Shown here one piece after another: positions 24,238 to 63,500 of a DNA stretch of 64,000 nucleotides. Source of the DNA: Chrysomallon squamiferum (Eukaryota; Animalia; Mollusca); the NCBI GenBank assembly GCA_012295275.1, contig CM022677.1, forward strand, positions 930,001 to 994,000, written 5' to 3'. Under the pieces are notes generated by a model. That model was not told the origin of the DNA, made no database searches, and saw only the letters and a program-made list of their open reading frames with translations. The position numbers and the translations under genes were made by a program. Numbering within the stretch: the stretch's first letter is position 1; every line of letters starts with the position of its first letter.

Positions 24238-27200
24238 CTAAGAAAATGTCTCTTTGTTCTGTTGAACAATAAAGTCCTGTGTGTTCAGATTTTTTCTTTC
24301 TTCTTCTGTCAATTCCTTGGCTGAGTATGGCGTGTTCATAAACTGCTGGAGATGAATCTGACAAACAAATAATACTGATAGTAAAATTACAAATAACAAT
24401 AATATGAAATGTAACAACAATATAACCCACAAAATTAATCAAAATGACAGTAAAATGTATCCATATAATTGGAATGTACATATAATGCACAGTATTAATT
24501 CTCCTGTGTCTGTGATAAGTAGTTTTGTGCAGATATGGAAACAACTGAACATACATCAGATTTTTATATTCTCCATAAATCATTACTAGGGCTTTGTTTC
24601 TATTTTCTTGTGCTTGGGGGCTGAAGACCAGAATTAAGTCATTTCTGTTTACTTCTAAATCAAAACCACTTGTAAATTTATTTTGATAAAGTTTCCTATT
24701 TCCTGGGACGCATGTTACAAATAAAATTTGGTCAGTTCTTGTTCTTTACAGCAAGTTAAATGTGACTTTAGTTTGAATACATTTTTAAAAACTGTTCTAG
24801 AATTTTTTAATACTATATTTTTCTTATCATTTGAAATCAATGTAGCCAGCATTTGTTTATATTTCACAAAATGTCAGTTTTCTTAATAGTTTTCTTAACT
24901 GTTAACTATTTGTGTAACAACAGACCTGAATAAATATGTTGACCTCCACACTTCGACTCAGGTAGGGGAAGTTTCCTCCAGATTTTAAATGAGCTCGCTT
25001 AGCATTTGGATAGCATTTGTACATGTCTTCTTTCACTGCAGTTGACAGCGCACAGTCATCAAACACCTTTAAAACAACATTTAAATTTAGCATTTCTTCT
25101 AAAGATTATTCTTTTGTTCAATTAAATGTCTTGCTAATCATAAACCTTAAAAAGTGAGGTAAATCTGCTCCTCTCTTTCTTGTGTCAATAATCACATTAT
25201 AATAATGTAACTTACATCAATAACAGTGATGATCACACTTTGTAACTTCTGTGGCTCCACGTAACAATTCATGCAGTTGAGAGTTAACCTTGATGCCAGT
25301 TCTGACTGTGACAACTGGTCAAGCTGAAATTAACAATATCCTTTTTAAACACAAACACATACAAAAACCTTTATAGGACTCCAACATTTTGTAAGAACTA
25401 TTAATTCCATAAATAATAAGCCCAAAACTAAAAATTATTTTAACAAATTGTATACTCCAACACAATAAACAACTTATGTAAAATATTTTCACTAACCTTT
25501 TCTACAAGGAAATCAACAGAATCAGCAATTCCATTGTCCATCAAACCCTTATTGAAGTTTCCCATCACCATTCTCTTTAGTACTAAAGCTGGCATCATCC
25601 AAAACCTGAAAAACAATCTTTAAAATAAGCATAAAAATAATCTAAAACACACATAGACACAAAGAACAGGTGCAAATTGTTCAGTATCAAAAGTTAATTT
25701 TTCAATTAGAGATACAATGGCTGACAAATGCCACAAACAACAGAGCACAACTTAAATCAGCCCAGAATCTGTTGTGTGAGCATATTAACTTTGGGGTATT
25801 TTACAAAATTTAAACAAAAAAGACAACAGTGAGTTTTAAAAAAAGAAACAAAGAGCTGAACTAGTGTTGGTGAAAGACTGGTGTGTTTTGTCATTTTAAA
25901 TGAATTGCATAAAATAATGGAACAGTTTTAAGACAACTGATTGGTAAAACTCAGCAAACATCTGAGCTAAAAATCCTCCAAGAGAGGCTCTGAAAATGTG
26001 TACCTGGTGAAAAAATGTGTACCTGAAACAACAAACAGACATCATCTCAAAAAAATTGTGTACCTGAAACAACAAACAGACATCATCTCAAAAAATGGTG
26101 GGTGAAACAACAAACAAACATCATCTCAAAAAAATGTGTACCTGAAACAACAAACAGACATCATCTCACAAAAATGTGTACCTGAAACAACAAACAGACA
26201 TCATCTCACAAAAATGTGTACCTGAAATAACAAACAGACATCATCTCAAAAAAATGTGTACCTGAAACAACAAACAGATGTCATCTCCTCAAAAACAATC
26301 ATTTTTATTTAACTTAAGAAAATGCCATTATTTCATGGGCATGCATGTATGTGCACTTTTATTGTGTACAAATGTTTTTCAACTGTAATACAGAGTAAAA
26401 ACAATTCAGTGAAGGTTTTTTTCCACGACAGATAAATAAAAATGCATTACGCCTTTTCTACTAAATTATTGTAATACATGTGATATTCTGAATACATATT
26501 ATTTATTCTATCCAGAATGTGACTACTTATTACTTATCTTATACTGGTTTAAGTAATTAACTTTTTTGCATGATAAAGAAAATAAATATGAGACGAAGAT
26601 TGTGCACATATTCTCTGTATATATGAATAATAATAAGTGATATACTGAGAGAACATGTTATACTCATTCTGTGTATAGATAGGTGAATGATATAATATAA
26701 GTGATATACTGAGAGAACATGTTATACACATTCTCTGTACAGATATGTGAATAATAATAAGTGATATACTGAGAGAACATGTTATACACATTCTATGTAC
26801 AGATATGTGAATAATAATAAGTGATATGATATAATTCTGTGTATAATAGTGAATGATATAATATAAGATATACTGAGAACATGTTACACATTCTCTGTAC
26901 AGATATGTAATAATAATAAGATATACTGAGAGAACATGAATTCTATGATATGTGAATAATAATAAGTGATATACTGAGAGAACATGTTATACACATTCTG
27001 TGTATAGATAGGTGAATGATATAATATAAGTGATATACTGAGAGAACATGTTATACACATTCTCTGTACAGATATGTGAATAATAATAAGTGATATACTG
27101 AGAGAACATGTTACACATTCTGTGTATAGATAGGTGAATGATATAATATAAGTGAAAACTCCTTCATTGTCTGTGTACAGATATGTGAATAATCAACCTC

Positions 27201-28174
27201 TGTCCAGTTGTAAGTGGTCAAGAAGACGACGGAAGCCATGTAAAAACTCCTTCATTGTCCAGTAGATAAAATATTCAAATTGGAGAATATCAGTTCACTA
27301 AAATTTCAATTATTATTATTATAACGCTGTTTTAAAATATATTCTTTATAATTTAATTAAAACATATAAATTTTACAGGCAAAGTCTGAATATATTTATA
27401 ACATTCTTAATATAAAAATCATTCATTAATTTTGTAAATTAAAAGCATTTAAGATCTTTTTAAACAAACTGTGTTAATGTTTAAAAAGAATAAGTAAAAA
27501 TAATTGATGATCAATTAACTTCATAATTTATTGTTAACATATCTCATGATCTGTTAGTTTTCAGCAGAGGTTTGCTCATTTTCCTATTATCTAAATATAT
27601 AACTAACTAGATATAATCATAATTAATTGTTGCAAGTTGCATAATTTAATTCAGTCTCTCACAGCAATCACTCTGTAACCTGCCACAGACAGAGACAAAA
27701 TCTGGCGGAAAAATACATCTGCTGTTCCACTAGCTGGTGGAAAACACATCAGAGGACATTTGACAGTGCGAGGACCCGCATCATATATCGTCCATTCTTT
27801 ACTGCTGTCATCATCAACAACAATCTGAAAATGTATTTAGTGTGAATAGTATTACACAATTGTTTATTCATTTTACTCTCACTTAAAAGATGAATAAATC
27901 AAATATTTTACAACTAAGCACTTCAGTTCTTTTTATATGCTGCTTTATAATAAAGATAAAACTGTAAAATTGGCCATTTAAAGAAACTGTGTACAAATGT
28001 GTGTGCATGTGTGTGTGTGTGTGTGTTTGTTTATATGTGTATGTGTGGTTGTGTGAGTGAGAGGGAAACAAACAGAGATGCTAACAAAATATCAACCACA
28101 ACGAAACTTACCTTTTTCTGTGGTACTGAGCTTCGGAAGCCTTGATATTCTGCACTTTTTGTTATTTCCGCCAT
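24238..28174 (-). CDS. SPG21: Maspardin (SPG21), 8 coding exons; exons 3 and 4 are corrupted in this sequence
   Basis: Intact exons: 28174-28112 ([21 protein letters not shown]), 27824-27663 ([19 protein letters not shown]...GYRVIA), 25605-25497, 25323-25216 ([12 protein letters not shown]), 25066-24926 ([15 protein letters not shown]) and 24357-24238. Exon 3 (about 27281-27198, [22 protein letters not shown]) and exon 4 (about 26003-25855, [19 protein letters not shown]) are recognisable but have broken splice sites or indels. Confidence 0.9.
25994..26290 (-). repeat. About 40-bp minisatellite containing the SPG21 exon-4 splice acceptor (about 7 copies)
   Basis: Plus-strand unit aaaatgtgtacctgaaacaacaaacagacatcatctcaaa. 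On the gene strand it reads tttgttgtttcag|GTACACATTTT, i.e. pyrimidine tract, AG and the first bases of the exon. Confidence 0.9.
26605..27195. repeat. About 60-bp minisatellite with two interleaved unit variants, SPG21 intron 3
   Basis: Core gtgatatactgagagaacatgttatacacattct followed by either ctgtacagatatgtgaataataataa or gtgtatagataggtgaatgatataatataa. About 10 copies, ending a few bases from the exon-3 donor. Confidence 0.9.
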
Positions 28175-28233
28175 CTTTTATCTTTTAAATATCATATTCT
28201 TGATTTCAACATTAATCTGAAAGATGGGCAAAA

Positions 28234-28280
<47 letters not shown>

Positions 28281-28465: not shown

Positions 28466-28520
<55 letters not shown>

Positions 28521-29395: not shown

Positions 29396-29438
<43 letters not shown>

Positions 29439-37917: not shown

Positions 37918-39238
37918 ATGGCTGGTCTGTCAGAGAAGAATAAGAAGAAAAAGAACAATCTTTCCGAGTGGTCAAGAACGGGAAGTTTTGTCAACAAACC
38001 AGACCACGGCTGGATCCACCCAGACCAGCAGCTTCAACCAGACGCAGGAATCTGTTACGGTGTCAGAGTAAGTCACGCTACTTTGAATTAATCTCACTGG
38101 AGTTTGTTACGGTGTCGGAGTAAGTCACGTTACTTTGAATTAATCTCACTGGAGTTTGTTACGGTGTCGGAGTAAGTCACGTTACTTTGAATTAATCTCA
38201 CTGGAGTTTGTTACAGTGTCGGAGGAAGTCACGTTACTTTGAATTAATCTCACTGGAGTTTGTTACGGTGTCGGAGTAAGTCACGTTACTTTGAATTAAT
38301 CTCACTGGAGTTTGTTTATTCTGAGAAACAGAAGGATTCAGAACAATCATGAGACATCAGTTAATGCATTTTGTATTTATTTGAATTAGACATTTCAGTT
38401 CTGTTCACTTTTTCTTTAGTGTTCAGCTAATTGTATTCAGTGTTACTGCATATAGCTTTAATTTTATTTTATTTTATTTCATTTTTTTTTCCACTTTTCT
38501 TCTTTGTTCATTGTAACAACTGCACCAATTTAAAGTGTTTGTTTTTGCAGTACATTGGATGTATTGAAATCAAAGAATCAATGAAATCTTTGGATTTTGA
38601 AACAAGGACTGCACTAACTAGGTAAATATTTATTTAGGCTGAATAAACATCAGAATATTTTAATATTACATCTTTAATGATTAATAGATCTTTGTCTCAT
38701 AATGATAATTTCATAAAAATTGAAATAATAATAATAGAAAAAAAACACAACTAAAATCAAGTTTAATTTTCCATTAATTTAACTGATCAAACCAACACAT
38801 TCAGGGAAAAATAGCGTGACTGTTGACATGAAGAAAAGAGTGTACTAGATGCTCTGTATTTCCTCACACTGGTTTCTACACAACCAGTCTTCTTTGTAAT
38901 CTCTCCTCACACTTTTCAGTACATGATGACACATACTGTTGAATCACACCAAGCAGATATTTTAATTTAATGACTACTTGTTGGCAACTGACAAAATGTA
39001 TTTTATATAAGTACACAAGATTATTTTGTTTTGTCTTTGTTTAATAGTACCAGTTTAATGTGACATATTAAAAATCTATTTATAATTAACTGTCTGATCT
39101 TTTTGTGTCATATTCTTTAGATGTTTTTTAAAACTTAGATGTTAAGAAAGGTTAACACACACATTGCCATACATACGCATGCAAACCCTTACATATACAA
39201 GTACAAAAGCTTAACATACACATACTTACACACATATA

Positions 39239-39276
<38 letters not shown>

Positions 39277-42200
39277 ACTTAAACACACACTTAAACACAT
39301 ATAACAATAACGACAAAGAAGGAAAAATAAATAAAAATGTTTTTATTCTTTCAGAGAGGCAATCAACAAGGTGGCAGAGGCTGCTGGATTGAAAACAGTT
39401 TCTAAAAAAAGAAAAGTAAACAATTTACCTATCAGCATATAAAATTAATGATATTAAAACAACTCTATATTTAGTTCATTTCTTATTTCTAAAATTAATC
39501 ACCCACTTATATGATCTGTTCTGTCTACTTTACTGCCAGAGCCATTTCTTTGCCTCTACAGCATTAAACATTATTACATTCACAGTTTATCAGAAATTTT
39601 ATTATATTCTAAAATAGTGTAAAATATTTTTTATTGTAGAATTTTAGTAAATGTCATTATGAACTTGTAGATATTTATAGTCAGTCTGCAGCAAATGGTT
39701 CACTTTATATTCCATGTATGTCAAATACAAAGTATTTACCCCCTGAGTAACAAAATATTATTACCATTTTGTTTCCAGGTGGAAAAGAAAATACTGAAAA
39801 TGATTGGAGACAATCCATACATGCTTCACGCTGGTTCTAATGTAAACATGACCATCACTATTGATGCCATAAACCTGATGGTCATGGAATCAGGGGAGGT
39901 AAGTTATGTGATACCTCAACCTCCTTTTTAAAAAAAAACTATTAAAATTCTTTAATTACTATCATTTTCTTTTTAAACGATGTATTTGCCAAGTGAATAG
40001 ATTTTTCAGTGACACTCAAATTCTCTGATGTCTGCTGCACCTCTTTACTTTGTACATTTAATTTTATTGTAATAATTATAGAACATGTCTCCAGGTCATT
40101 CTCTTATTATTATTGTCATTGTGTTATTGTTTTTTCTGTTCTGTTTATTTGTGTTTTCATTGTTGTTGTTGTTGTTGCTGATATTCCTGTTGTTATTTTC
40201 AGATAATTGCAGACCATCCAATGCAGGTTGTGTCATTTGCTTCAGGAGGTGATGCAGTAAGTTTAAAATTCTCATGTTTAAAAAAATGTATAAATCATTA
40301 ACCTAACTGTACAGATCTTTTTAAATAATCAGGAAATTTTGTAATGTGCTTTTGTGGTGAAAAATTTTGAGGACCGTGAAAAACGAATTTCATCTGATAC
40401 TGAAGTAAAAACATTTATCAGTCAAACCAAGCCAACAGACATTAGAACACATTATTAATCTTTATGTGAATGATCTAATATAAATATTGATTGTATAATA
40501 TGCTATACATTTTAGTTTATTAAATAAAATAAAATACTTTTTAACTGATTTGCAAAGTAACTGTACCAGGTATACTGTAGATCATAATAATCTGATCATG
40601 TTTTGCTTCAAGCAATACAGTTTTCACTGTAAAACAAAACTTTTGTTTTTAGGAAACTTTGGACTTTGTGGCGTATGTTGCCAAAGATGCCAGCAGAGGG
40701 CGTGCCTGTCACGTGCTAGAATGTGGAGGGGGCCTTTCTGAGGATGTTGTTACAACAATAGGCCAGGCCTTTGAGCTGCGATTTAAGATGTACCTCAACA
40801 GAAAACCGAAGGCAGTTCAACTGAATGACATGTGAGTGTGTAACATGAAACCTGTGTTTTTTATCCCAGTATCATCCTACCTTCATCACACATTAGTTGT
40901 CAGAAATAATAAAACTTGTGAAAATTATTCTGATTTAGAACAAATTGACAGTAATACTTTTCTAATTTTCTTTGAATTCCGAGGTGAAAAGGTTGTTACA
41001 CTGGTGAGAACTGGTTTTAAAACCAGGCAGATAACAGGAACAGAAACTGATAGCTGATGTGTTAGAATTAGTTTCTTAGTTTATACCACTTTATTCCTGA
41101 GAATAATAAAATAATGAGAATGATTTATACTTTTGTTTAAAAAGAAAATAATAATGATGTAAGTATTGATCAGTGAAACATAGCAGTTGTGAATACTACA
41201 CAACTAGTGTATGTAAATGTAAAGTTAGGGAAGAAATCATGAAAACAAGAGAAAACTGTCTATCCATGAACTTTTTTTTAGATATCAGTAACATTTTTCA
41301 CTAATAATATCAAATGAAAAATTATGAATTTTGTATGTATATGAACTTGAATCATGTATCAACAATTAAAATGATTAATTATAATCTGAAACTACATTCA
41401 ATAAAAATTTAAGACAATAAAATGAATTAATTTTAATTAATTTATTCTGACATTCTCTTAAGCATTTTTCAGTGTTGTGCAGTGGTATTTTAGAGAAGAT
41501 TAAATCAGATTATTTATTCTTAAATAATATGTTATCACATTCTTTTAAAAGTATTAATGTGATTTGAAAGTTTTATTCATTTCAAAAATTTGTAAATTCT
41601 TTTTTGTCTTTAGTCGTGATAATTCAGAGTTTGAAAATTCCAAATGGGGAGAAGAACGAGAATATTACAATGACAGGGAAGGAGCTAGCCCCCCTTCTCC
41701 CCCACCTGTACCTCCTATGCCAGAATATAACACTCCCAACAGTTTGCCAGTGAGTGTGTGTCCTCCATTTGTTTATTTATTTATTTATTTTATTTATTTT
41801 GTAAGTAATAAATTATTGAAAGTTCAGCAATAATTCACTGATTTTAAGCACATATTTTAAACTTATGTGATAATATTTTACCATAATTGCAAGAAACATT
41901 TAAATAAAAGAATAATGCCATGAACAATTGTTATAAATTTTTAAGTTTTACACATTTGAGAGAAAAAACATTTGATGGAATTATTTTTATAAATTTTATA
42001 GTTTGCAGTATTTTTTTTTTGTTTATATTTTTTTTTAATTCTTTTTTTTTTTTTTTTTTTTTATCCACTAATGAGAAATTTAAAATATTTGTGTTCAGGT
42101 TGGCATGTATGTGTCAGTAAAGGACAAATCAGAGAATGCTGTTTACTCAGAACCTACCAAACCACTGATAGACCTGTCAGACAGCAAAGTGTACGACAAC

Positions 42201-47519: not shown

Positions 47520-50353
47520 TTAAAATTTTATAACTTTGGTTCGATTTTTCTTTGTCTTTTGAGCGGTTTCTTTTTTCTCCTCATATTCAGCATCTACACT
47601 TTGATCTTCTGCAATTCGTTCAACAGTCTGAGAGGAAATACCTGACAAAACAAAACAGTTAATAATTAGATAATAAAAATAAGTTTATGTAGGAATTTTA
47701 TCTGACTTATGGATATTTCAGAAGACTGTTTTTATTAACAGAAATAATCATGTTTTATGGAAAGAATAAAAATGTGTGTTAACAAAACCGTTTCTAAAAC
47801 TCAGTGAAATATAATTGTTTTATAAGAAGTAGGATCAGTGGCAGAGTTCTCAGTGAAATATTTTGTTCTGAACGATCAACATACACGATAGATTACACCC
47901 CTTTCACTCCAGCAACTGCTGCACAAATATATATAATTGTTTTATCTTTGAGACACAAAACAAAAACCTAAAGTATTCATGTTTACCCTGTTCTTCCAAA
48001 TGTTGTGGACAGTCTTTCATGTAATGATCAACAGCACCGCAAGCACGACAACAGCCTCCTTGAAAAATACAACATTTTAACTTAGTTTTGTCATGAAAAC
48101 TTTAATTCTATATACTATATACTATATAGTGTGTTTAGTGGTACAGTGGACATATGAAATCAGTGAAAAAACTAATAAAATTATTACTTCTGAAAAAAAG
48201 AATGAAATAACAGTTGATAATAAAATGAATGAACAATCTAATACTAAATTAAGTTTGGGAAATCTGCTAAAGATATTTAAGCTGTTTGCCAGCACTGTCA
48301 CATGTACAGTTCAGATGTCTGTGTTTTGAGGTGGGTGTGCAGTTCAGACATAAACTAAATATTACTTACCTTTTGGATAAAGACCTCTTGGATTATCTGG
48401 ACACTGTCTGGTTATGTGTCCCATTTCTCCACAGATGAAGCATTTGGCAAAAGGGTATTCACCTAGAACAGGACAAATAACATTTAATAAAGTTTGTTTA
48501 ATCATATTCCTGAATAATAAAAAAATGAAATAGTTATCAGTTGTTTATTAAAATGTTAACATAGGTAGGATCAAGAGATCAAAGTGGTAACTTTAATGAG
48601 GTGTATTCAGGAAAAATAATAAATAATTTTGTTTTGTACAAAACACACAGGACTCTATTATCTGTTTTCCAGATAAAAAAACTGCTTTTTCTTGTTTGTC
48701 ACAGGAAATCTTTGTCTCAACAATCACTGTTGTTTTAGTCCTGTTTCCAGCATACCACGTGTCATCAATGTTAAAAATAATAAATATCTTCACAATGTCT
48801 GTGATGAACATGTAACATCTGATACCATAAATGAGGTGTTGCTCTTAATGCATAATGGTAAGTAAACCCAACATGAAGCAACCATTTCAAAAACAAGATA
48901 CCATGGAAAAAAGCCAATCAGTAGCCATGACATAAAACACTATTATTTTACTGAAGCTGATAACATTATGACTGAGTTGCTATACAAATAATTTTTTGTT
49001 CAAAAAAACTATAACAACAGTTTTATATTCATAAAAGATAATTTAGGTTACATCATTTGAGAAAATACAACCTACTGAAAAAAGAAATATTATTTTGTAT
49101 GAAACAAAGTTGACATTACTGACCTGGACTGAGTTTCAGAGAGCAGTTAGAGGCTGAGTGTTCTGTGGAGCCACACTTAAAACAGATCCCAGTGCCCTGG
49201 TCCGTCGACTCCCTCAACAACTCACAGTCCTGCATCTTGTGTCCAGGCTGCCTGCAGTTATAACACACCTACAAATAACATTTTAGTAAGTCCATCTAAA
49301 ATTCATCAGTTTAAATCATTTATTTAAAATACAAACGAAATATATAAATAATAAAAACAAAAATTAAAATGCATAACTTTCAAAAGTCCATTTCCAAATA
49401 AATAACAAAAATTAAAACTTTCCTACAAAAAAAATAACATTTTAATAAGTCCATCTAAAATTCATCAGTTTAAATCATTTATTTAAAATACAAACAAAAT
49501 ATATAAATAATAAAAACAAAAATTAAAATACATAACTTTCAAAAGTCCATTTCCAAATAAATAACAAAAATAAAAACTTTAAAAAATATAGTAATAAATT
49601 AATAAAATAAAAACAGTGTATTACCCAGACAGACCAGAAAAAGAAAGAAAAAGGTAAGACCACCCTGTCAGTGATACAAATAAAAGCTTTCTAGTTATTT
49701 AGCAATAAATATATATTTATAAAAACTGGTATTATTATGTTCATACTACTAAAATTTTAGATGTGAACATAATAATAAATGGACCAAATATTAGTGTGAA
49801 ATTAAATGAATAAACAGATGCACAAAGAACAAAAATCAAAATTCAGCTAGGTTAATTATTCACCACTAATAAATGGTAAAATTATGTATTTTGGTGAAAT
49901 TTGGAAAGTTTTTTGGACAAATGAAAGACAAGCTGATCTCAAAATTAAGTATCCTTCCCCAAATAATAGCAATAAAATAATAACTCTTACTTTTTCAGAC
50001 TTTTTCTGCTGAATTCTTTTTACTCTTCTGTGTTCACGTTTGGTTTCTTTATTGTAAACTTTAGCCAAATATCTCTCCTTTTCATCTGACCACTGTCCAC
50101 CTTTATTTCCAAATTTATTCTTTATTCCTGAATGTTTCAAAGGTGTTTTCCATTTTTTCTCTTTACTTCCTCTACCTGCTGATAATTTTGATTCAGTTTT
50201 ATTACTTTTCATGTCTTGTTTTGAAGATGAACTGTTTGTTTCATTTTTGTTTTTAGTATCTGAGTCTGACACATCTTTCTTCATTTCCTCCCACTTCGAA
50301 GCATCAAGTGGTTTCCTTCTGTTTGAATCCCCAGCTCTGGCCCACCGTGTCAT
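47520..50353 (-). CDS. ZCCHC9: CCHC zinc-knuckle protein ZCCHC9, 5 coding exons
   Basis: Exons 50353-49991, 49268-49124, 48462-48370, 48058-47987 and 47641-47520. Starts MTRWAR. Four knuckles: CYNCRQPGHKMQDC, CFKCGSTEHSASNC, CFICGEMGHITRQC(PDNPRGLYP) and CRACGAVDHYMKDC. Ends KVIKF*. Confidence 0.93.
49268..49580 (-). repeat. About 154-bp tandem duplication starting at the ZCCHC9 exon-2 acceptor
   Basis: cctacaaa...taacatttta(g/a)taagtccatctaaaattcatcag... occurs at 49268 and again at 49422. cctaca reads tgtag|G on the gene strand. Confidence 0.85.
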
Positions 50354-50422
50354 TCTGTCCTGCCAAAGAAATATAAAAAATGTATAATAATAATATTATT
50401 ACTGCTATTATAATATCAAAAA

Positions 50423-51147
50423 TAGTAAATATTTGAATTACGAGTTCCCCAACTTATGAGTTTTTCAAGTTAGGATCAGTTGCCCAGTCGATTTTTTGCT
50501 TTGAGTTGCAAGCCGAAATCTGAGTTACAAGTGAGTTTCAGATACGCTCTGCTAGTTGACGCAATGAACAACACAACATCCACCCAGCATCCCATGTCTC
50601 ACTCGTTAGCTTCATGTGGTTACCTTGCTGTGGAAGCATCTCTGTTGTGTTGTGCTCGCATTATGACCAGTATTTTGCCAAATTTCCATGGATCCTAAGA
50701 AAGTGAGTGCAAAGGACAGTGCTGAGAAGAAGCGGATGTGTCCATTGAATTAAAGCATAAAATCATAGAAAAACACGAGTGAGGTGTGCATGCAGTCAAC
50801 TTGGCTAGGCAGTATGAGCGTTGTACTTCTAGTAGAAGTTCTGAGGTGCACCATACTCAACCAGAAGAACTGATAAAGGCTAACTCCAGCCAAAGGCATT
50901 AAAATAATTTGTCTGATCTCCAAGATAAATACTTTACAAAACCAATTTATTTGTTTACATTCTCTTTTATTTTGTTTTTATACATACATTTTTCTTACTT
51001 AAAAACATGTTACAAAAAATTGGTGTGGGTTTTGGGGGCTGGAACAGATTAATGGTATTTCAAGTAATTTCAGTTGGGATATATGAATAAACTGAGTTAT
51101 GAGCTCGGTCATGGAACGAAATAAACTTGTAAGTCAAGGTACCCCAG
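50423..51147 (+). mobile_element. Internally deleted Tigger/pogo DNA transposon with an N-terminal transposase remnant, in the ZCCHC9 5'-UTR intron
   Basis: From 50688, across frameshifts: MDPKKVSAKDSAEKKRM / SIELKHKIIEKHE*GVHAVNLARQYERCTS / TILNQK...TPAKGIKII, a CENP-B/psq-type HTH. Right TIR gtaagtcaaggtacccca. Arms are homologous to 5264-5746. Confidence 0.85.
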
Positions 51148-51502
51148 TATTTGTAAAATACTACATTGATAATCAATGTTCTATGCTTATTCTACTTTGA
51201 AAATCAATGATAATATTAACAATTAAATGATAGCTATGTTTCTTATATAGGTGTTATACAAACATGAAAGAAAACCAGTTTATAAGGAAACATTTTGTTT
51301 TCAACATTTTTAGTAGTGAGAAAATATTTTATTAGTAAAATTGTACAAAACATTTTAGAATTGCATAACAAATTTTGAAACTTCCAAGGCAATTTACATG
51401 ATAATGACCAAAATGTTTCCTGTATTATGTGTATCATCTATATGTATTAAATCAGAAGTTATGTAACCCAATCAATTTGATCATCATCATCATCATCATC
51501 TC

Positions 51503-51519
51503 TGTCCCTCTGTATGTGT

Positions 51520-51572
<53 letters not shown>
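51503..51572. repeat. (TG)n microsatellite
   Basis: Long TG run upstream of the ZCCHC9 coding region. Confidence 0.95.
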
Positions 51573-51574
<2 letters not shown>

Positions 51575-52019
51575 GACAATGAATTTGATCTGGAGAGAGA
51601 AAGAAAATTAATTTGACAAATGAGACTGTTTACAGTTTTATTTGACTTTTTTTTAATATAAAATACTATCGTAACTATAAAATAGTTGATTAAAAAGGAG
51701 AAAATCAAAACCAGAAAAGTTAAATAAACTGTCAGATAATCATAATGAAGCCCACCCGATTCGCTAATAGTAATAATAATAATCATATTAATAAATATGT
51801 GTGCATTATTATATACTAATATATAGTAATATATTTTCATATTTTAAAGAATATATATTATATGTCGACATCAATAAAAATATAAAAATAAAAATTATTT
51901 AAGCATTAGCTGTCCAAAATTCTTACACTATTGTTTTCGTAATTTTGATGTGATGCTTAGAAACCTCTACATCTTCACGAATTCAATACGAACTTTACAA
52001 CATGTGTTTATCTTTATGG

Positions 52020-52135
52020 TGTTACCGGTTCCATAAATAACTTCCGTTTCAGCTGTAAGAAATATATCTATTGGTTTTCTTGAATTTGGTCAACCAATAG
52101 AAAAACTTTTATTAAATGTAATACACGTGCATGTC
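52020..52135. promoter_or_regulatory. Putative bidirectional promoter of ZCCHC9 and TTC37
   Basis: ACTTCCG (about 52040), oppositely oriented CCAAT boxes (attgg 52070, ccaat 52094) and a CACGTG E-box (52124) between divergent genes. A minus-strand donor-like gtaaga lies at 51926-51921. Confidence 0.5.
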
Positions 52136-53147
52136 AAGAAAATAGTGTAGACTGAATGTTTAGTACGTATACTGACAAATGTTTAGGGGGTTGGGGAATG
52201 GAACTTTTTTCTATAAACAGAACCACGTTTTAATTTAATATCAGAATAACAACCTATAAAATATTTATAATTTAGATTAGGTAGTAACTCAATTTATAAA
52301 ATGTCACTTTCATAAATCGTACTTAATCAAATAACTACTGAATTATCATTTATGAGAAACTTACCTCTGTGGTTGTAAAATAAAACCTGTTCACGAACGA
52401 CAACTCTTACTCAGAAATGATCTCATATTCGTCTATCAATTGAAACCAGCCTAAAACATAATATTTATCTCTGTAAGTCTACCTCTATTCAGATCTACAT
52501 AACAAAGAACATTTTAATGATAATGCAGATTTCATAAAAATATTTTTGAAAATAATTTTTTTTTTTACATCAGCTAGGCTATTTTTTTTTTTTTTTTTTT
52601 TTTAACCCAAAAAATATCAAAATGCCGATACCTGGAAAGTGGATTTTTGAAACATTTGAAATGCGAAACCTTTTACACTGTTATAGATGTCTTCAAAATA
52701 TTTTTTTATTTGTTTTTATATTTGGGATTGGTTGGGTTTTAATTGGTATAGAATGAATCATGCGTTAGCACCGGTACTTGAGAAATGTTGATCATTCTCT
52801 TATCTTTGAAAATATTAATTTAATAATTAATGTCATTCCAATTTATTTTTTAATACATATCTTAATTTATTTATTTATTTTATTTTATTTTTTTGACAGC
52901 TGTATCTAAGCATTAATTAGTAGTTTGAAATACTTGTTTGACAACTTTCTAATTAAATTATTTCCTTACACAAATGATACATATCTCCATTATCTGCATT
53001 TTTATTTTCTTAGTTTTTATTGGGTCACTTAAAAAAATAAATAGAAGTAACAGCATAACAAGTATGTATGCATAACGGATTACTTTTCATTATCATTCAC
53101 ATTTCAGAATAGTTGTTATTTATCAGATGAAATCACTGGATTGAAAC

Positions 53148-54520
53148 ATGGATGCCAAAGAAGTAAAAGCGACTTTGAAGAAAGCCAGAAATGCTATACA
53201 AAATAAAGAATTCAAAGAAGCCCTCAAATGTTGCAAGGTTAATATACTGACAGACACATGTACACTGCTACATGTCATAAAACTGTCACAGTCAGTATCA
53301 CTCTTAGCGATAACCAAAGTATAAGTTTAATTAATAAATTATACTGAAAAACATTAATGAAAAGTTAACAGGCATAGATGAATGTGATTGAAGTTGATGA
53401 ATCTAGATCTCTAAACATTTATGTATTTATTTAAATAATTCTGTTTCTCACTTCTTCATTCGTATTGTAAGATTTACAAATATTTATAGATGGATATAGG
53501 CAGACACACAAACAGAATTCTGTATGTTCAGCAAAAAAGTTAATTTTTCATCAAGGAGATCCATTGGAATTGTCATAAATGAATTTATTCGTAAAGTTAT
53601 ATTTAGAGGAAATGATCATGCTGACAAAGGTTGTTGTATTTATTATTTAATTACTTAAAACATTTTTATCTTCACTTTTTATTTCTACAGAGTGTTCTGG
53701 CACATGATAAAACAAACTACAATGCCCTGGTGTTTGTGGGCGTGGCAGCAGAAGGGTTGGAGCAGACCGATCAAGCCCTGAAGGCTTATAAAAAAGCTAC
53801 AAGTGAATGTCCAAATCAGCTTCTTGCTTGGCAGGTGCTGTTTCATTTTACCCAGTTCTAATTTATAGTGATATAAAGGCTTAAACACATTGTCAGCACC
53901 TTCATCTTACTGTGGCATTTATGTGTGAAGAATAAATAGAATTGTATTTACTTTTTTATTATAATTATTTTATTTTATTTTATTTTATTTATTTTTATTT
54001 TTTTATTTTTGTTATTTTGGTGGGGATGGCTTAACATGAATTCATAAAATCCAGTACTCTTCTATGCCTTGAATACCACAAAAGAAGAACATTGAAACTG
54101 ATGCAGAATGCATGTATCTGCTGCAATTGGAACAAATACATATATATTTCTATTTATTTAAATCTGTATATTTCTGACATTTCCTAATAATCTTTTTAGC
54201 ATTCTTTTTAAATTTATTTCAAATTTTTGTCTTGGTCCTTTTGACATTTCCAGTACATAAAACTGAGTAAATGTAAATGTAACTTGCTGTAAGAACATGG
54301 AGGCATCTTTTTCTTTACTTTCAGGGTTTATGTGCATTCTATGAAAAAAACCCAAACCCAGAAAATAACAAAGATCTTGTGCAAGTTTATGAACAACTAC
54401 TGACACTTCATACAAAGTAAGATTTGAGCAAGTATTTGTGTTTGTGTATGCATCTGTATGTGTGTTTGTGTCTGAATGTGTGTGTGTCTGGTCATGTAAA
54501 TATTAAATTGATTAGTTATG

Positions 54521-54563
<43 letters not shown>

Positions 54564-57500
54564 TATAATACAGTTTTTACTTCAAATCATTTGTATATAT
54601 TTCTTTTATTATATTGTTTTGTTATTTCACTTTAATTTGAAAATGGTTGTTCAGCAAACTTCTTTTTCAAACAAAGTCATAATTAATTTATGTTTAGGAT
54701 TTGATTTAAATAGTATGTGTCTGTGTAAATGTTTCATGTTGTTTATCAGTTTTTACAAAATTTACTTCATACTGATAAGAGCTAAAAAATGTTTTTAAAC
54801 AATATTATTCATGAGGAAGCTGGCACAGAAACTTCCAAAATAATTAAAATAAAAATTCTGAATTCAAAGACTACCTAAAGTATGTTGTTTATTAGAATAA
54901 GAAAAGGTTTCAAATTTTAAAAAACAAATTTTCCAGTGCAAAAGAAAAAGAAATTGAAATAACAAAGAAGTTAATAATTTTGCTGGCATCCATGAAAGAA
55001 GAAGAAGAAAAGGTGAGTTGTCAGAAATAATTATATACAGTTTGTTTTAAATGGATCTCATCATCTTTACAGACAAATATCTTACAAAATTAATATTGTA
55101 TGATGTAGTTTCCACTCTATAAGAAAATAAACAAAAAACCCAAACATTTCTGCTTGATAAGAAAAGCCTAAAACAAAGTTGAGAAGTGTTGCATTTATCC
55201 ATGAATGAGCATTTTAATTGATTTCTTTGGACTTCTGTCACTATCCATATCAAATATTTTTATTTCATTAATGAAATAAAGTATATATTTTTAAGGTAGC
55301 TTATATATATATTTATGAAATATTTGAATATTATTATTTGAAATGTGAGAAGTATTTGTTGTTTGAAGGTGATGAAGCTGTTTGGAAGTCTGGTCTGTGA
55401 AGGACATACAGAGACAGTGAGAGAGATTGTCTCAGTGATACAGAGAGACACGTCTCACAGTGAAACACTTGTAAGTTTGACTTGTACAAACCAGCTTTGA
55501 ACTCCCAGAACTCTAAACTGAAGCTTGGGAAATTAATAAAATGTATTTGAGCTTTTAGACAATAATATATAATATTTTTCTTATAACCAATAATCATAAT
55601 AAATTTACATTTCATTTAGGTTGTTATCCAAAATTACTTTGTATTCTTACTGTTCTACCATTAACAATTTTTCATTCATATCCATGGTTTTGCACAGTTT
55701 AAATTTTATGTTTTTACAGTTTAAACAATGTATTATAAAACTTTGTTGAAAATCGTAGCTAAATTTCAGAATTAACATGTTTTTTGTTTTTGTTAAATAT
55801 CAAAAATATTTCAGGAAAAATCTTCATGTTTACAACGTGGTAACAAAACTAAAATTAAATTGATTGTTGGAAATCATCTAATATTCAGCTAGTCTTCTCT
55901 CTGTCTCTATGTCTCTTTTGCTCTGTCTCTTTTTCTGACTGTCTTTCTGTCTGCCTCTCTCTCTCTCTCTCCCACCCACCCTCCCTCCCTCTGTGTAAAC
56001 TGGACATAATTTTGATTAACACCTGTATGCAAACATTTTCAGGCAGATGTTATTCATTAAGCAGTCTTAGTGAAATGTCACTGTTTAACTGGGTAATCTT
56101 TCCCATTACACCTCTGTACTCCTTTCTGTCTGTGGGAAAGTCCATATAAAGTAGTTTCCTCATTATCAGAGCTAACAACACTGAATATAAACAGTTCATT
56201 ATTAATTCTAGTTTTCTGCTTGTTTCTAAAGTTGTTGAGGATGCTGAACAATGCTGTGTCACTGTCTGACTTTCTTCAGGATGAGGTGATGATAAAAAAA
56301 TATCTTGACCTACTTGTTAAGGTGAGCCACATACATAAGTGATTAAATAAAACAAAATTTGATAATTAACAACTATGGTCAATGATTTTTAACTTGTGGA
56401 AAATTAGTTTAAAGCTGAAAATTGAATCATTAAAATAAAATAATTATAAAAGGAAATATTAATATTATATGTATGAATATATGTGTGTATGTATATGTGT
56501 ATGTAAGTGTGTGTGTGTGAGTGTGTGTGTAAAATATGTAGGGAAACATCAAGAAAGTTTTTCTAAATAAATATAAATGTATTTTCAGAATTGTGATGTA
56601 CAAAATATTGAAAAAGTTTGTAGTCGACTTCATGAACAGTTTCCTTCCATGTGTGCTCCATTGCAGATGTTGCTGCAGCTGCTGTTAGACAAGAACATGG
56701 GTAAACTCAGTGTTAATGCTGTCTTTGTGTGTGAGTGTGCACGTTCCTTACACATTTTCATTCTGTTCCATTCACAATGTGTAATATAACAGAAAATAAA
56801 AATAACACTGAAACTAAAGCAGGTAACGTTAGTTTATCAGTTTTGAGACAAATCAGTGTTTTTTGTTTTTCTGTTGTCAGGATGTGAGCTGGTTGATGAA
56901 CAAATCAGACGTCTTAGTGAGAAGCTGAGAACTTTGGACAATGGTGAATCTACTGCCATAGCACATATAGCAACAGGCTACCTTGATTTATGTGGAAAGA
57001 AATTTGTACAGGCCAGGGAACATATTCAAAAAGGTATTCTGTGTTGTATTAGGTTTGTATACAAAACAGATGTTGGTAAAAGTCAGTCATTGTTGTTGTT
57101 TGTGATAAAAACATATTAGTGAATTACACTGTTTATTTTATCACTCAGTATGGGGTGAGGGGGCAAATGTTTTCCCCACCCCTTCTTTGTAGGTGCAGAT
57201 TTTAGTATTTATTTCTAAATATGATAATATAAATCAGTAGAAATAACAAAAGTAAAATCTGTTTGTTGTCATGTTACTAAGACAGTGTATATTTACAGGT
57301 GTAGATGCTGACTCATCACTGGTGTGTGGACACTACTATCTGTCCAGGAGTCTGTTTCATATCCATGCTGACTCAGACTGCATCCAGGCCTGTCTCACTG
57401 GTACAGTCTCTGATTAAAGCTTTTTATTTACACCGCACATTTTATTTATAACTATAAAAAGTAATGTATCATTCTTTTATTACAATAGTCTTTTTATAGC

Positions 57501-60500
57501 AAATCCATTTAGATTATTTAATATTTGACTGACGTGTTTGTTAGTTCTCCATCTTTCTCTTCTTTTTGTTTCTCTGTGATTCCTTACTGCACATTCTTAC
57601 CAAGTATCTCTGTCCTTCTGACAGTTTCTCTCAAATTTATGGAGCTATTAAAAATTGGTTCACCTTTCTGTTTAATCCAAATTAATTTATTAAATGTTTG
57701 TAAATGAATAAATTTTATTACTCTAATTACCTAATTATTATTATTATACTGCTGTTTTCCAGGTCTGAGTTCACTGGAGAAGAAACAGATGAGAATAACA
57801 GTGTCCAGACAGTCTGGTACAGACATTGTTAAAGTTAATTCAGACAAAATGTCTCATTAGAAAAGGGACTGAGGCTTCACTGAGACAAGCAGAAGACATT
57901 CTGACAAAGGTATGATAAACAAGAATAGTCTTGAGCTTTGAAATTAATATCTATTCTGAGCACTTCTAACAAATCCATGAGGATATTTTGGTATTTTTTT
58001 TTAATTATTATTATTACTGCTACTACTACTTCTACTATTATTATTATCATCATTATTATCATTATTATTGTATTATTATTATTATTATTATTGTTATTAT
58101 TGTTGTTACTGTGGTTATTTTTTATCTTCATAAAAGTTAATTCATTTTATATAATGCTGCAAACTGAACGTTGTTTTTACATCTAAAGTTAATTATGAAT
58201 AATTTGTGTTAATTATGAATCACACTGTTTCAGATGAATGATGTAAAACATGAGGATGTTCAGTTCTGCTTGGCTTTGATTCACATCGCTAAACAAGACA
58301 TGGAGAATGTGGAGGTTTGTATTCATTTTTTTTTTTTTTTTTTCCACACAGACAAGATTGTTTACATATTGTCAGTTATTTACCCAGACACATCTCTTAT
58401 ATACAATTTATATATTTGTTAACTTTTTCTTCTTTTTCATTTTGTTTTAATGCAGTTCACTTTTAATACAAATCTAAAATGAAATGTAATTGAGATGAAA
58501 AAGTGTTGTTATAAATCATCCAGTTTAATTGTGATCTGCATTCTCAGCAGTAAGCAGTCAGGTTAAAATATCCAGTCTTGAAAACATTAAACTATCCAGT
58601 CTTGAAAACAGTAAACTATCCAGTCTTGAAAACATTAAACTATCCAGTCTTGAAAACATCAAACTATCCAGTCTTGAAAACATGAAACTATCCAGTCTTG
58701 AAAACATTAAAATATCCAGTTTCGAAAACATTAAACTATCCAGTCTTGAAAACATTAAAATATCCAGTCTTGAAAACATTAAAATATCCAGTCTTGAAAA
58801 CATTGAAACATCCAGTCTTGAAAACATTAAAATATCCAGTCTTGAAAACAGTAAAATATCCAGTCTTGAAAACATTAAAATATCCAGTCTTGAAAACATT
58901 AAAATATCCAGTCTTGAAAACATTTGAATATCCAGTCTTGAAAACATTAAAATATCCAGTCTTGAAAACATTAAATTATCCAGTCTTGAAAACATTAAAA
59001 TGTAAGATAGTTGTAGTTCTACTCTAATCAGTGTAAATGTTGTCCTGGTATATTTTTTATTTTAAATGTTTTTAATTTTCTAACTTGTTTGTTTTAGAAA
59101 TGCATTTCTCTGTCATCAATGGAAAGCAAGAAAAAAATATTTCTGACTGGTCTGAAATTGTTTAGCCTGAAACATTTTGAAGAGGCACTGAAGAGGTTTG
59201 TTTGGATTATTTTGATAATAACATAGTTCAGTGTAATGTGCATAAGAAACATTGTTAAACCTCACAGAGACTTGAGAGAAATGTGATGTCAAAATGTACA
59301 TGTTAAACTGCACAGAGAGAAATGTGATGTCAAAATGTACGTGGGCTGGCTGACAGCACACTTAACAAGCCAGTGTCTGTGTGTGTGTGAGTGTGTCCTT
59401 ACACAAACATCTATACACACAATGTGTCTCATTATATTTTATCTCTGTGCACATATGTACATGTTTATGTATGTTTTGTGCAAATACCTATATGATGTAT
59501 AAATTCAAATACACGTATATAATTTCAGTTTTAATGAAGCTGTTTACTAATGTGTGTTTAAGTGTTGTGTGTGTGTGTGTATGTGTGTGTGTTTTGTGTT
59601 GAGTTGTTTTGTGTTACGGTTTCAGCATACATAATATATATTGAAAATCATATAAACATCCACACATGTATATAATTTCAGTTTTAATGAAGCTGTTTAC
59701 TAATGTGTGTTTAAGTGTGTGTCTTGTGTTGTGTTGTTTTGTGTTACGGTTTCAGCATACATAATATATATTGAAAATCATACAAACATCCAAACATGTA
59801 TATAATTTCAGTTTTAATGAGGCTGTTGTACACGATGCAGATAACAGCGAGGTTCACTTCATGCTTGGTAAAACGCTGTGGGAACTGAGAACGTCAGAGC
59901 AAAGTGAAGTAACAAAAAAGAAATGTATTGAGGCTTTACTTAAGGTTTGTTTTACTTTATTTATCAGAACATTAGATTTTTGCAAAATAGTTCTAAAAGT
60001 TTTAACACTGTTCTTTCAATATAAGTTGTTTTTATAATCGTGCCTACTTTTTTTTCAATTAAAGTGAATAAATAAAACACAAAAGGACCCTAGATGTTGA
60101 CTCATTATAAAATAACTAATATACAACAGTTCAGCTGTCACAGAATAATGACAAGGTTACACATCTGAGATCTATAACACATACATTCCAAAGATTTAGA
60201 AACTTACTGAAATGTTTCATTTTCAGTAAATAATGTTATTGTTATGATAGCTTTTTTTTCAATTCAAAACAAATAAAAACTATCAACAAATGTAGTAAAT
60301 GTAAAGACTGAAATTTCACCATGGACCCATTTTTTTGAGATATTAAAATGATTCAGTTAACTATTACAATTTTGTTTCGCACTATTTTGCTTCTTGGGAG
60401 AAACTGTTTTACAACACATTTAAATCTGGTGTTTCTAAATTCATTTTTCTGTCTCAGCTCCCTATCAGTAATAAAATACATTACTTTATTCTTTTTCTCT

Positions 60501-63500
60501 TACACAACACATTCACTGTATTACTTTCTGTAACTGTTCTCATTACACAGGCTGCTCAACTTGATCCTTACAACAGTCACATATTTTTATACCTGGGTCA
60601 CTTCTACAAAGAAATCCAAAATGATAATGTGTAAGTAAAGATTGTTATTTTTGACACCTGTTTATACTTGTTTGTGCATGTTTATGTGTTTTTGTTTCAT
60701 ATTCTTCTTTTTTAAAATGTTCCTCATTTACAGTTAATGTAAAATCAAAGTTAGATTTAGTTACTGCTAAATAAATATTAAAAATAAAGCTTTTTCTGAA
60801 ATATTCACATACTAAAACATGTATAATATAATAAATAACAATGTGGACCATAACAAACTAATACAACTTCTTAAAGATGAAAAATGCAAAACAGATGAAA
60901 TTCAACTTACAACCTGTTACAGGTTACATATTATCATGTTAAAGATTTTCTAGTTGTTAGACATATAATAAATATTAATATTTCTATATTGATGGAGGCA
61001 CATATCTAAAGAACAAGTTTATTTTTTTTTAAATATTTTTAGTTCTAAAAAAACAAAATAACAACAAAAGAAACAGCAAACCCTCCCCCCCCAAAAAAAA
61101 ATGTTTTTGTCTTGTCTGTAACTAAAAGTGACAAATACACTGAAGTAACAGGCGTGTTCTGTTACAGGAGGGCAAGGAAGTGTTACCAGAAAGCGTTTCA
61201 GCTGGACAACTCCAGCGAGGAAGCTGGAGCTGCTCTCTGTGACATGATGGTCGCCATGGGTGACGAGGTGATTATGCTTTCATTTAGTGTATGAAATTCT
61301 CATGAGACAACTTTTTGATGTGTGTGTGAGTCTGTGTTTCTTTTTGTTTTGTCTTTGTGTGCAAGCATGAATGTGTCGTTGTGTTCTTGTGAGTGTGTAC
61401 ATGTGAGGGTGAAAGTTTAGAATTGTACATACATTCACATTTGATGTACAGTATATAAATATAATCTTTGCTAGTCTTTTTTTTATTATTATTATTATTT
61501 ATTACTAATAAGATGTTATATTTTCTGTGTTAAATTTCTGGTAAAATAAGCACACATTACAGTAATGGTGTCACTGGTTATTTTGTAGGAAGCTGCTAAA
61601 AGTTTGCTTCTCTCTGTCACAGATCAGTGTCTGGCTGCCAGGTTGGTCTCTGTTCTCTACAAACTCTATTTTATAAAACTCTATTTTATAACACACACAT
61701 GCAGGTTGTCATTTGTTTTTAGTATTTTTTTTTCTTTTTCAGTTATTATTCATTGTTTACCAGAGTCATGTTGTAATTTTATTTATCCTTTCATCCTCTC
61801 AGTCATTCTTTCACTTGTTCAATCATGCACTAGTCACTGACGTATATTACTATTCATTTCATCTTTTACTAAATCCCTCACAAAAACAGCTTACTAACAA
61901 GTGGCTGATTTTGTTACCCCTGTTTGGAATCTTTCAGTGGGAAGTGGGCGTGGCTGCGCCTGGGGCTGTATCAGATGAAACATGAAGATCCCTCTGTGGC
62001 CATCAAGTCCTTCCAGTCGGCTCTGAGAGCTGACCCTGCTGACCAGTGAGTGACACACAGAATACTTTAACACAGAACCTTTTATATTTTATTAGAACTG
62101 TTTAAATTTCAAAAATAACAGATTAAGTAGCAGCAATGTGATGATGAGTGTTTGAATGTGTTAGTTTGTTAGTGACATGGTTTCTCACAGACAGTTTAAC
62201 ACTTTCAGTCGTGTTTGGGAATGTGATGATGAGTGTTTGAATGTTGTTAGTTTGTTAGTGACATGGTTTCTCACAGACAGTTTAACACTTTCAGTCGTGT
62301 TTGGGAATGTGATGATGAGTGTTTGAATGTTTTAAATAGTTTGTTAGTGACATGGTTTCTCACAGACAGTTTAACACTTTCAGTCGTGTTTGGGAATGTG
62401 ATGATGAGTGTTTGAATGTTGTTAGTTTGTTAGTGACATGGTTTCTCACAGACAGTTTAACACTTTCAGTCGTGTTTGGGAATGTGATGATGAGTGTTTG
62501 AATGTTGTTAGTTTGTTAGTGACATGGTTTCTCACAGACAGTTTAACACTTTCAGTCGTGTTTGGGAATGTCTTGCTGAATCGTACCTGTACAGAGGCAG
62601 TTATACAGCAGCTCTCAAAGCTTTCAACAAAGCAGCTGAGGTCAGTTTATTTCTCTTTGTTAACATCTTACATCCGATATAAATGTAATATATAAAATAA
62701 TATAGCTTGTTTATTTTGTTAATTTTTCTAATTTCTATTAATTTTTTTTTTTCCTTTTATTTTATTTTTTCATATACGTATTCATTCATTCAGTAATTAT
62801 TTAATAAAATAACACTAACAGTATTAATACTGTTTCTTTTGATAGTGATAATCCTGTTGTCAGATTCTTTTCTAATCCTCAGGCAGCTATTAAATCTGCT
62901 TAGATGTTGAATTTGTTTAACAAGATGTCTGTATTTTTAAAAAGCTGTTTAACAGTTTTATCAGTTTTAACATTTTCATTACTTCACAGCTGGATCCAGA
63001 TTCTATGTACAGTCTGTACCAGTGAGTATTGTTTATTTGTTTGTTTGTTTTTTGTTTTGTTTTTTTGTTATATAACTTATCTGTAATACTTAGAAAAACT
63101 GTTTTACTTTTCTTTCTTTTTTTTTTTTAACTTTAATTCATTGCTGAAAATTTAATTGCAATTCAAAGAATATAGATGTTTGTGGCTGTTTTGAAAAAGT
63201 TTTCAGACTTGTTGTTGTTTTGTTGTATTTTGTTTAGGATGGCCAACATCAAGCAAGCTTTAGGTGAATTAACAGAAGCTATTAGCGAATACAAGACAAT
63301 ACTGACAAAATCACCTAACTACGTTCCAGCATTAAAAGGTATTTGAAATTAAAAATGTCATTGGTAACCTTTGATACATAACATAAAATTTTGTTTGTTC
63401 ATCCAAAATAATGTCAGTTGTTGGCAAAATGTTGAATGAATTTGATTTACAGTCTATAAAAAAAGAAGAAACAATTTGTATTTGTTCTTTACTCAGTGTT

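What the first reader, a model, noticed from the sequence alone, without database searches (positions are those of the whole stretch)
25994..62571. Recurrent splice-junction-anchored tandem repeats: six independent arrays of decoy splice sites in four genes
Seen: six tandem repeats with unrelated sequences and periods (about 40, 52, 22, 154, 130-153 and 86 bp) each include an exon edge, the GT or AG dinucleotide and adjacent intron. There are two donor arrays in SHC and four acceptor arrays (SPG21, ZCCHC9, two in TTC37). Two more arrays (15872-16050, 26605-27195) abut junctions, and only one long array (58565) is mid-intron. In each case the copy giving the shortest exon is the one that keeps the frame, and the alternatives I translated give a stop or frameshift. 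Short microhomologies sit at several duplication joints (TGTT, TTTGAT, AATGT). Inference: junctions are a small fraction of this window, so the coincidence suggests a process that duplicates DNA at exon edges, such as microhomology slippage at exon/intron composition or nucleosome boundaries, or transcription/splicing-coupled repair. It also implies splicing that ignores up to 11 perfect decoys, or copy-number-tunable NMD, or raw material for intron sliding and gain. I do not know of this being described as a genome-wide system.
Basis: partly seen in the sequence, partly recalled or inferred. Interest (0 to 1): 0.85.

Follow-up and report, generated by a model that had tools for sequence, protein, structure and literature searches.

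The report
Splice-junction "mirage" minisatellites in snail genes
In four neighbouring snail genes, six stuttered DNA repeats copy an exon edge together with its splice signal, and the RNA seen joins at the copy next to the real exon, so this is a dense example of a repeat type already named "mirage" in lancelets and is likely a tolerated by-product rather than a regulator.

Summary
The arrays are in the window, in SHC, SPG21, ZCCHC9 and TTC37 of a gastropod (nearest named protein relative Gigantopelta aegis). Three of the six junction arrays are confirmed as real in short-read contigs; one is confirmed in a second study. Assembled RNA uses the exon-side copy at 4 of the 6 (3 directly, SPG21 by inference). 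Within the window the junction excess beats chance: 6 of 9 long arrays hold a splice dinucleotide against 1.2-1.7 expected (P 2e-4 to 1.5e-3, post hoc), while microsatellites show no excess. The element is known: amphioxus "mirages" and human F7/CBS/ABCA7 junction minisatellites. This scan has already noted it in annelids, urchin, shark, mussel, abalone and an octopod; the unreviewed octopod note found it rarer than chance genome-wide. Corrections: the ZCCHC9 unit holds 1 exon base and 2 copies; the window's SPG21 sequence is error-laden, so its frame argument fails. Best reading: microhomology-seeded duplications expanded as minisatellites and ignored by splicing. A junction-targeting mutational process is possible but untested, because no genome was available.

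The parts
15874..16047 (-). AT-rich 24-29 bp array in an ABHD8 intron, ending 13 nt before the acceptor AG (15860-15861); holds no splice site
26004..26287 (-). SPG21 acceptor mirage, about 40 bp x7 plus a 19-nt partial unit; used acceptor gives exon start 26003; 6 decoy AG; window consensus unreliable here
   Evidence: RNA piece ends at 26003 inferred from from_end values
26605..27195 (-). 60-64 bp array in the same SPG21 intron, abutting the donor near 27198; run X1 has 12 other letters in place of 27085-27197
   Evidence: table 5c
38053..38316 (+). SHC donor mirage, 52 bp x5.1 (15 exon + 37 intron bases); used donor after 38067; 3 intact decoys, 1 lost
   Evidence: RNA contig X9 record 25 covers 37921-38067
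42573..42690 (+). Decayed two-copy duplication (25 nt, 93 bp apart) of the SHC acceptor tract before 42693; the upstream copy lacks the AG
42872..43163 (+). SHC donor mirage, 22 bp x13.3 (10 exon + 12 intron bases), with decayed units on to about 43245; used donor after 42881; 11 intact decoys, 1 lost
   Evidence: RNA X8 and X9 end at 42881; X1 contig ends at 42901 as the array predicts
49268..49580 (-). ZCCHC9 two-copy duplication (154-159 bp) of the acceptor region; includes AG and 1 exon base; decoy at 49422 scores higher than the real site
   Evidence: not covered by either read call
58563..59001 (+). 24 bp x18.3 array inside a TTC37 intron, 95 nt from the acceptor; holds no real splice site; 7-bp microhomology
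59515..59827 (+). TTC37 acceptor mirage, units of 153 and 130 bp; used acceptor gives exon start 59812; 2 decoys
   Evidence: RNA joint 59193->59810 GT..AG (cut +2) in X8 and X9; X1 and X6 contigs start at 59794
62135..62571 (+). TTC37 acceptor mirage, 86 bp x5.1; frame-keeping acceptor gives exon start 62556; 4 identical decoys
   Evidence: X6 cyclic 116-nt contig at depth 420.7, X1 contig ends at 62188; RNA does not bridge this junction
37919..44424 (+). SHC gene, 12 coding exons, open spliced frame of 488 residues
24250..28174 (-). SPG21 (maspardin) gene, 8 coding exons as modelled; damaged in the window between about 24.6 and 27.3 kb
47520..52450 (-). ZCCHC9-like zinc-knuckle gene, 6 exons modelled
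53148..63874 (+). TTC37/SKI3 gene, first 21 coding exons; runs off the window

Best explanation
These are 'mirage' minisatellites: short stretches spanning an exon edge are duplicated in tandem, likely seeded at 4-7 bp microhomologies and expanded by slippage or unequal exchange, and the spliced RNA seen joins at the copy next to the intact exon, so the extra splice signals are likely tolerated by-products. Shown: the arrays, their splice signals, the microhomologies, their presence in short-read DNA for 3 of 6, the use of the exon-side site for 4 of 6, and an in-window excess at junctions. Inferred: the origin by microhomology-mediated slippage or repair; site choice by exon definition or oriented scanning, as shown for human F7; removal of rare mis-spliced RNA by NMD. 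The local excess at junctions most likely reflects where such duplications start: repair or recombination that pairs in a conserved exon and slips on entering an indel-rich intron. That last step is untested.
For: Real DNA: X6 (a different study from X1) holds a 116-nt contig identical to 62397-62512 whose first and last 30 letters match, i.e. an 86-bp cycle, at depth 420.7 against 25-59 for its other listed contigs. X1 contigs end at 42901 and 62188, exactly where the last unique 31-mers end. X1 and X6 contigs start at 59794, and X1 depth doubles at 59670-59793 (153.5 vs 72). Splicing: RNA contigs stop at 38067 (X9) and 42881 (X8, X9) and join 59195 to 59812 (X8, X9). Decoys score as well as or better than the real sites on matrices built from this window's other sites, so position, not strength, decides. 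No sign of upkeep: one decoy has lost its dinucleotide in 3 of the 6 arrays, and decayed units trail the 22-bp array. The mid-intron array has the same kind of joint. Same anatomy as amphioxus Adh3, globin, troponin C and PGBD5 mirages, which do not disturb splicing, and as F7 IVS7. Introns differ between samples by indels of 49-103 bp while exons differ by substitutions only in the rows shown.
Against: The excess at junctions (6 of 9 vs 1.2-1.7 expected; 8 of 12 within 20 nt vs 1.9) is not explained by plain tolerance, and the exon-edge origin I propose is untested. RNA contigs drop rare variants, so minor decoy use is not excluded; in human 6-16, CBS and ABCA7 the nearest decoys are used. 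The SHC 52-bp, SPG21 and ZCCHC9 arrays were not directly seen in reads. RNA does not bridge the 62556 junction. In the 22-bp array the 10 exon-derived bases are unchanged in all 12 copies (0 of 120) while 9 of 144 intron bases differ; the 52-bp array shows no such pattern (5 of 60 vs 5 of 148).
Confidence: 0.75

Rival explanations
1. No junction bias at all: a repeat-rich, short-intron region, picked for the scan because several arrays happened to fall on junctions.
For: Introns are short (median 390 bp, n=54), so long units often hit a junction (26-37% for the two longest). The window was flagged because of the pattern, among some 250,000 scanned. An unreviewed note reports such arrays rarer than chance genome-wide in an octopod (e1-9950288). 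None of the 8 notes listed of 12 for other windows of this genome concerns this pattern.
Against: P = 1.6e-4 (window null) and 1.5e-3 (genes-only null) for 6 of 9; 2e-6 and 5e-5 for 8 of 9 within 15 nt. Microsatellites (3 of 50 vs 7.6 expected) and 7-19 bp repeats (4 of 44 vs 6.1) show no excess. All 13 complex duplications found lie within 95 nt of a splice site.
Confidence: 0.35
2. Functional rheostats: decoy number tunes the share of PTC-bearing transcripts and so gene dosage through NMD.
For: 21 of 21 intact decoys in SHC, ZCCHC9 and TTC37 would give a stop or frameshift. The 86-bp array seems to differ in copy number between samples (about 5 in the window; X6 depth suggests roughly 8-10). 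ABCA7 VNTR length correlates with splicing and expression (PMC5954066 passages).
Against: Stops are expected in 70% AT intron sequence and from periods not divisible by three. No decoy-using RNA contig was seen. Decoys decay. Units are unrelated and the genes share no pathway. Contig depth is not a copy-number measure.
Confidence: 0.07
3. Assembly or polishing artefact at exon edges.
For: The window is locally wrong: 20 substitutions and 24 gap letters in a 1,043-bp X2 contig at 24813-25855; RNA and X1 disagree with SPG21 exons; one TTC37 exon is frameshifted. X1 may be the source sample.
Against: Short-read contigs show the repeat structure for 3 of 6 arrays, two of them also in X6 from another study. 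Elsewhere X1 matches the window with 0 differences over 1,149 bp. It remains open for the details of the SPG21 array.
Confidence: 0.04

Closest known systems
Amphioxus 'mirage' minisatellites (Adh3, globins BflGb6/BflGb9, troponin C, PGBD5; PMC3087553 and PMC3902484, passages read; the original Adh3 paper was not held)
   Same: Tandem copies of an exon-intron boundary, on donor and acceptor sides, unit sizes 10-160 bp, several genes of one genome, normal splicing, length variation, proposed as raw material for intron gain.
   Different: Here a gastropod; six in 36.5 kb across four adjacent genes; an in-window enrichment is measured. Somatic instability was not tested.
Human F7 IVS7 37-bp VNTR, with 6-16 (IFI6), CBS, LAMIN B2 and PDGF cases (PMC1557585; abstract, introduction and discussion read)
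   Same: First unit spans the junction; identical pseudo-donors follow; only the most upstream donor is used in F7, LAMIN B2 and PDGF, as in both SHC arrays.
   Different: Those are donor-side single loci; four of the six here are acceptor-side, where the last copy is used. In 6-16 and CBS the two nearest decoys are also used; not seen here, but contigs could not show it.
ABCA7 intron 18 25-bp VNTR (PMC5954066, passages read)
   Same: Unit starts at the donor GT; use of the second unit gives a frameshift.
   Different: Length-dependent effects on splicing and expression are reported there; none is shown here.
Internal tandem repeats at exon-intron boundaries in human segmental duplications (PMC2812944, passages read)
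   Same: Minisatellites at exon-intron boundaries, linked to new introns through cryptic sites.
   Different: Those alter gene structure in paralog families; here the single-copy genes keep intron positions and frames matching other molluscs.

Membership tests
Mirage minisatellite | Tandem unit spans an exon-intron boundary and repeats the GT or AG | tested here: met
   5 arrays with 10-16 exon bases; ZCCHC9 marginal with 1 exon base
Mirage minisatellite | Unit of minisatellite size (10-160 bp in amphioxus) | tested here: met
   22, 40, 52, 86, 130/153, 154-159 bp
Mirage minisatellite | Regular splicing at the authentic copy | tested here: met
   RNA contigs at 38067, 42881, 59812 directly and 26003 by inference; not seen for 62556 or 49268; rare isoforms invisible in contigs
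Mirage minisatellite | Some copies lose the splice signal or decay | tested here: met
   38223, 43145 and 26102 copies lack the dinucleotide; decayed tail after 43158
Mirage minisatellite | Length variation between haplotypes or individuals | tested here: inconclusive
   X6 depth 420.7 on the 86-bp cycle vs 25-59 elsewhere suggests more copies than the window's 5, but contig depth is not a copy number
Mirage minisatellite | Somatic instability (reported for Adh3) | not testable with these tools
   needs single-molecule or small-pool PCR data
Splicing-regulatory VNTR (ABCA7 type) | Decoy use or exon skipping that depends on allele length | not testable with these tools
   only assembled contigs from two RNA runs; none uses a decoy
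Intron gain or sliding by tandem duplication | New or shifted intron position relative to orthologues | tested here: not met
   spliced SHC and TTC37 frames through the real sites match mollusc orthologues without insertion at these junctions
Genome-wide junction-targeting duplication process | Excess of arrays at splice sites across the genome | not testable with these tools
   no genome held; in-window excess only; metagenome scans empty

The most novel reading that the evidence does not exclude
In this snail lineage nearly all complex tandem duplications start at exon edges, because homologous repair or recombination pairs in conserved exons and slips where it enters indel-rich introns. Mirages would then be the footprint of a genome-wide mutational process tied to gene structure, touching about 4-6% of splice sites and supplying hundreds of natural tests of splice-site choice and intron gain.
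Probability: 0.25. Interest if true: 0.65.

Novelty: new member of a known kind. Interest (0 to 1): 0.32.

Why it matters
As it stands: a dense, read-supported set of a known repeat type, useful as natural donor-side and acceptor-side tests of splice-site choice, and a trap for gene annotation and short-read assembly. The mechanism that makes mirages was called unclear in PMC3087553. If the junction excess held genome-wide, with the microsatellite control flat as here, the question of why exon edges duplicate, and whether this feeds intron gain, would become directly testable in one genome.

Tried and rejected
Whole-genome test: impossible, no genome held. Orthologous loci: the SHC scan of metagenome contigs found 221 pattern matches and no relative; a 25-base junction pattern found 0. 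The RNA gap at 62044-62564 in X8 (depth about 4) is uninformative. Most joints listed (sides 20-26 nt in AT-rich DNA) are noise and were ignored. Bin depth over the 22-bp array (X1 209.7, X2 21.4, about 3x) is only a hint, since depths are summed over all contigs. Rejected: 'all decoys give stops' as evidence of selection (expected in AT-rich introns); microhomology as junction-specific (mid-intron array has it too); a shared element or transposon behind the arrays (units unrelated by eye). Literature: 8 full-text searches listed no genome-wide enrichment test of such arrays; the library lacks most subscription journals, and two papers asked for by id were not held. No supplements were read.
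Full report
Setting. The window is 29% GC animal DNA with short introns (median 390 bp over 54 modelled introns). An SHC exon is 95% identical to Gigantopelta aegis and 81% to Haliotis, so it is a gastropod. tblastn with seven named mollusc proteins places ABHD8, SPG21, CKS, SHC and TTC37. Spliced frames are open for SHC (488 residues), ABHD8, CKS, the ZCCHC9-like gene and TTC37 exons 11-21. No whole genome was held.

Observation. TRF finds nine non-coding arrays with period 20 or more and score above 200, counting 26619-27143 as one. Six include a splice dinucleotide. Exon bases per unit are 15 (SHC 52 bp), 10 (SHC 22 bp), 16 (TTC37 130/153 bp), 16 (TTC37 86 bp), 11 (SPG21 40 bp) and 1 (ZCCHC9). 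Intact decoys number 3, 11, 2, 4, 6 and 1. Two more arrays end within 15 nt of a junction, and one lies 95 nt from an acceptor. On a stricter test, 4 of 102 canonical annotated sites have a near copy of their junction-spanning 26-mer within 600 nt. The ZCCHC9 case is marginal.

Are they real? For three arrays, yes. Run X6, from a different study than X1, has a 116-nt contig identical to 62397-62512 at depth 420.7, against 25-59 for its seven other listed contigs. Its first and last 30 letters are the same, which is what an 86-bp tandem cycle gives with 31-letter words. X1 contigs end at 42901 and 62188, exactly 30 letters after the last unique 31-mers. X1 and X6 contigs begin at 59794, where the copies of the 130-bp unit diverge, and X1 depth doubles just upstream. 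X1 may be the source sample, so it tests the assembly, not independence.

A caution on SPG21. Between about 24.6 and 27.3 kb the window disagrees with the runs: 20 substitutions and 24 gap letters in one 1,043-bp X2 contig, many differences from both RNA runs at 25928-25960, and from X1 at 27268-27309 and 27085-27197. In the window one acceptor and two donors are missing and the exon after the array hits a stop after 35 residues. I infer a poor local consensus.

Splicing. RNA contigs end at 38067 (X9) and 42881 (X8, X9), the first donors of the two SHC arrays. Both runs join 59195 to 59812, the last acceptor of the 130-bp array. The SPG21 RNA piece ends at 26003, inferred from the from_end values. 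The 62556 junction is not bridged. Decoys score equal to or above the real sites on matrices built from the window's other 50 donors and 49 acceptors, so position decides. Contigs drop rare forms, so minor decoy use is open. 21 of 21 intact decoys outside SPG21 would give a stop or frameshift, which AT-rich introns make likely anyway.

More than chance? With arrays collapsed to one unit and 121 splice sites (112 from gene models, 9 added to be conservative, some off by a base), 6 of 9 hand-chosen arrays hold a dinucleotide against 1.17 expected over the window (P 1.6e-4) or 1.72 within genes (P 1.5e-3); counting only 5 gives 2e-3 and 1.2e-2. With automatic TRF sets, 8 of 12 clusters of period 20 or more lie within 20 nt of a site against 1.89 (P 7e-5); one exonic cluster was set aside. 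Microsatellites give 3 of 50 against 7.6, and periods 7-19 give 4 of 44 against 6.1. All 13 complex duplications from my own finder lie within 95 nt of a site. These values are post hoc: the window was flagged for this pattern.

Mechanism. Shown: 4-6 bp microhomologies at three clean junction arrays, and 7 bp at the mid-intron one; loss of GT or AG in single copies; decayed outer units. Inferred: a microhomology-seeded duplication, then minisatellite turnover. The exon-side copy keeps its full exon and wins by exon definition or scanning; rare errors would go to NMD. Tolerance explains survival, not excess. My best guess for the excess is mutational: repair or recombination pairs in conserved exons and slips on entering introns, which differ between samples by 49-103 bp indels. 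This is untested.

What is known. Tandem copies of exon-intron boundaries are termed mirages in amphioxus (Adh3, globins; units 10-160 bp; both boundaries; normal splicing; mechanism unclear; proposed route to intron gain; PMC3087553, passages; PGBD5 and troponin C, PMC3902484, one passage). Human F7 has 4-8 identical pseudo-donors and uses only the first; 6-16, CBS, LAMIN B2 and PDGF are cited there (PMC1557585, abstract, introduction, discussion). ABCA7 shows length-dependent splicing (PMC5954066, passages). Boundary repeats in human duplications are linked to new introns (PMC2812944, passages). I found these papers before consulting the scan's notes. Those notes, unreviewed or unchecked by me, report the same element in annelids, a sea urchin, elephant shark, mussel and abalone, a window-wide case in another invertebrate, and an octopod case said to be rarer than chance genome-wide. 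Eight searches of the held library listed no genome-wide enrichment test.

Verdict. Real, correctly seen in the main, and a new member of a known kind. Interest 0.32. The open point is whether the junction excess holds across this genome (probability 0.25; interest 0.65 if so).

Noticed in passing
window 24600-27310: SPG21 exons and introns disagree with DNA runs X1, X2 and RNA runs X8, X9 by many substitutions and indels; splice sites and the GXSXG glycine are lost in the window. Likely a poor local consensus, not a pseudogene.
   Followed up: partly
   Followed up: partly
window 42776-42837: In-frame 24-bp coding repeat in SHC (two YDNKEN motifs); Gigantopelta has one at this place, Haliotis two.
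   Followed up: partly
window 27155-27171: A 17-base copy of SPG21 exon sequence (27243-27259) sits inside the end of the intronic 60-bp array; it lies in the stretch that X1 replaces, so it may be an assembly chimera.
   Followed up: partly
window 59274-59340: Two-copy 26-base duplication 41 bp apart, 77 nt from a TTC37 donor; an X6 contig replaces 59261-59314 by 15 letters, so it appears polymorphic.
   Followed up: partly
window 14974-32817: CKS-SPG21-ABHD8 order looks conserved in molluscs: database models fuse SPG21 with ABHD8 (Gigantopelta P0141, Haliotis P0151) or CKS with SPG21 (Pomacea P0145). Annotation fusion or read-through was not tested.
   Followed up: no
window 5270-5750 and 50430-51150: Two stretches that look by eye like related small elements with inverted ends (MITE-like); not tested.
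   Followed up: no
window 18500-19800: GC-richer stretch between ABHD8 and SPG21 that looks by eye like a decayed transposase; not tested.
   Followed up: no
window 5990-7490, 10054-12594, 29200-30517: Other genes: a long open frame on the minus strand that looks leucine-rich-repeat-like (untested), an MFS transporter (PF07690, PF13000) and a SHIPPO-repeat gene (PF07004). None carries a junction array.
   Followed up: partly
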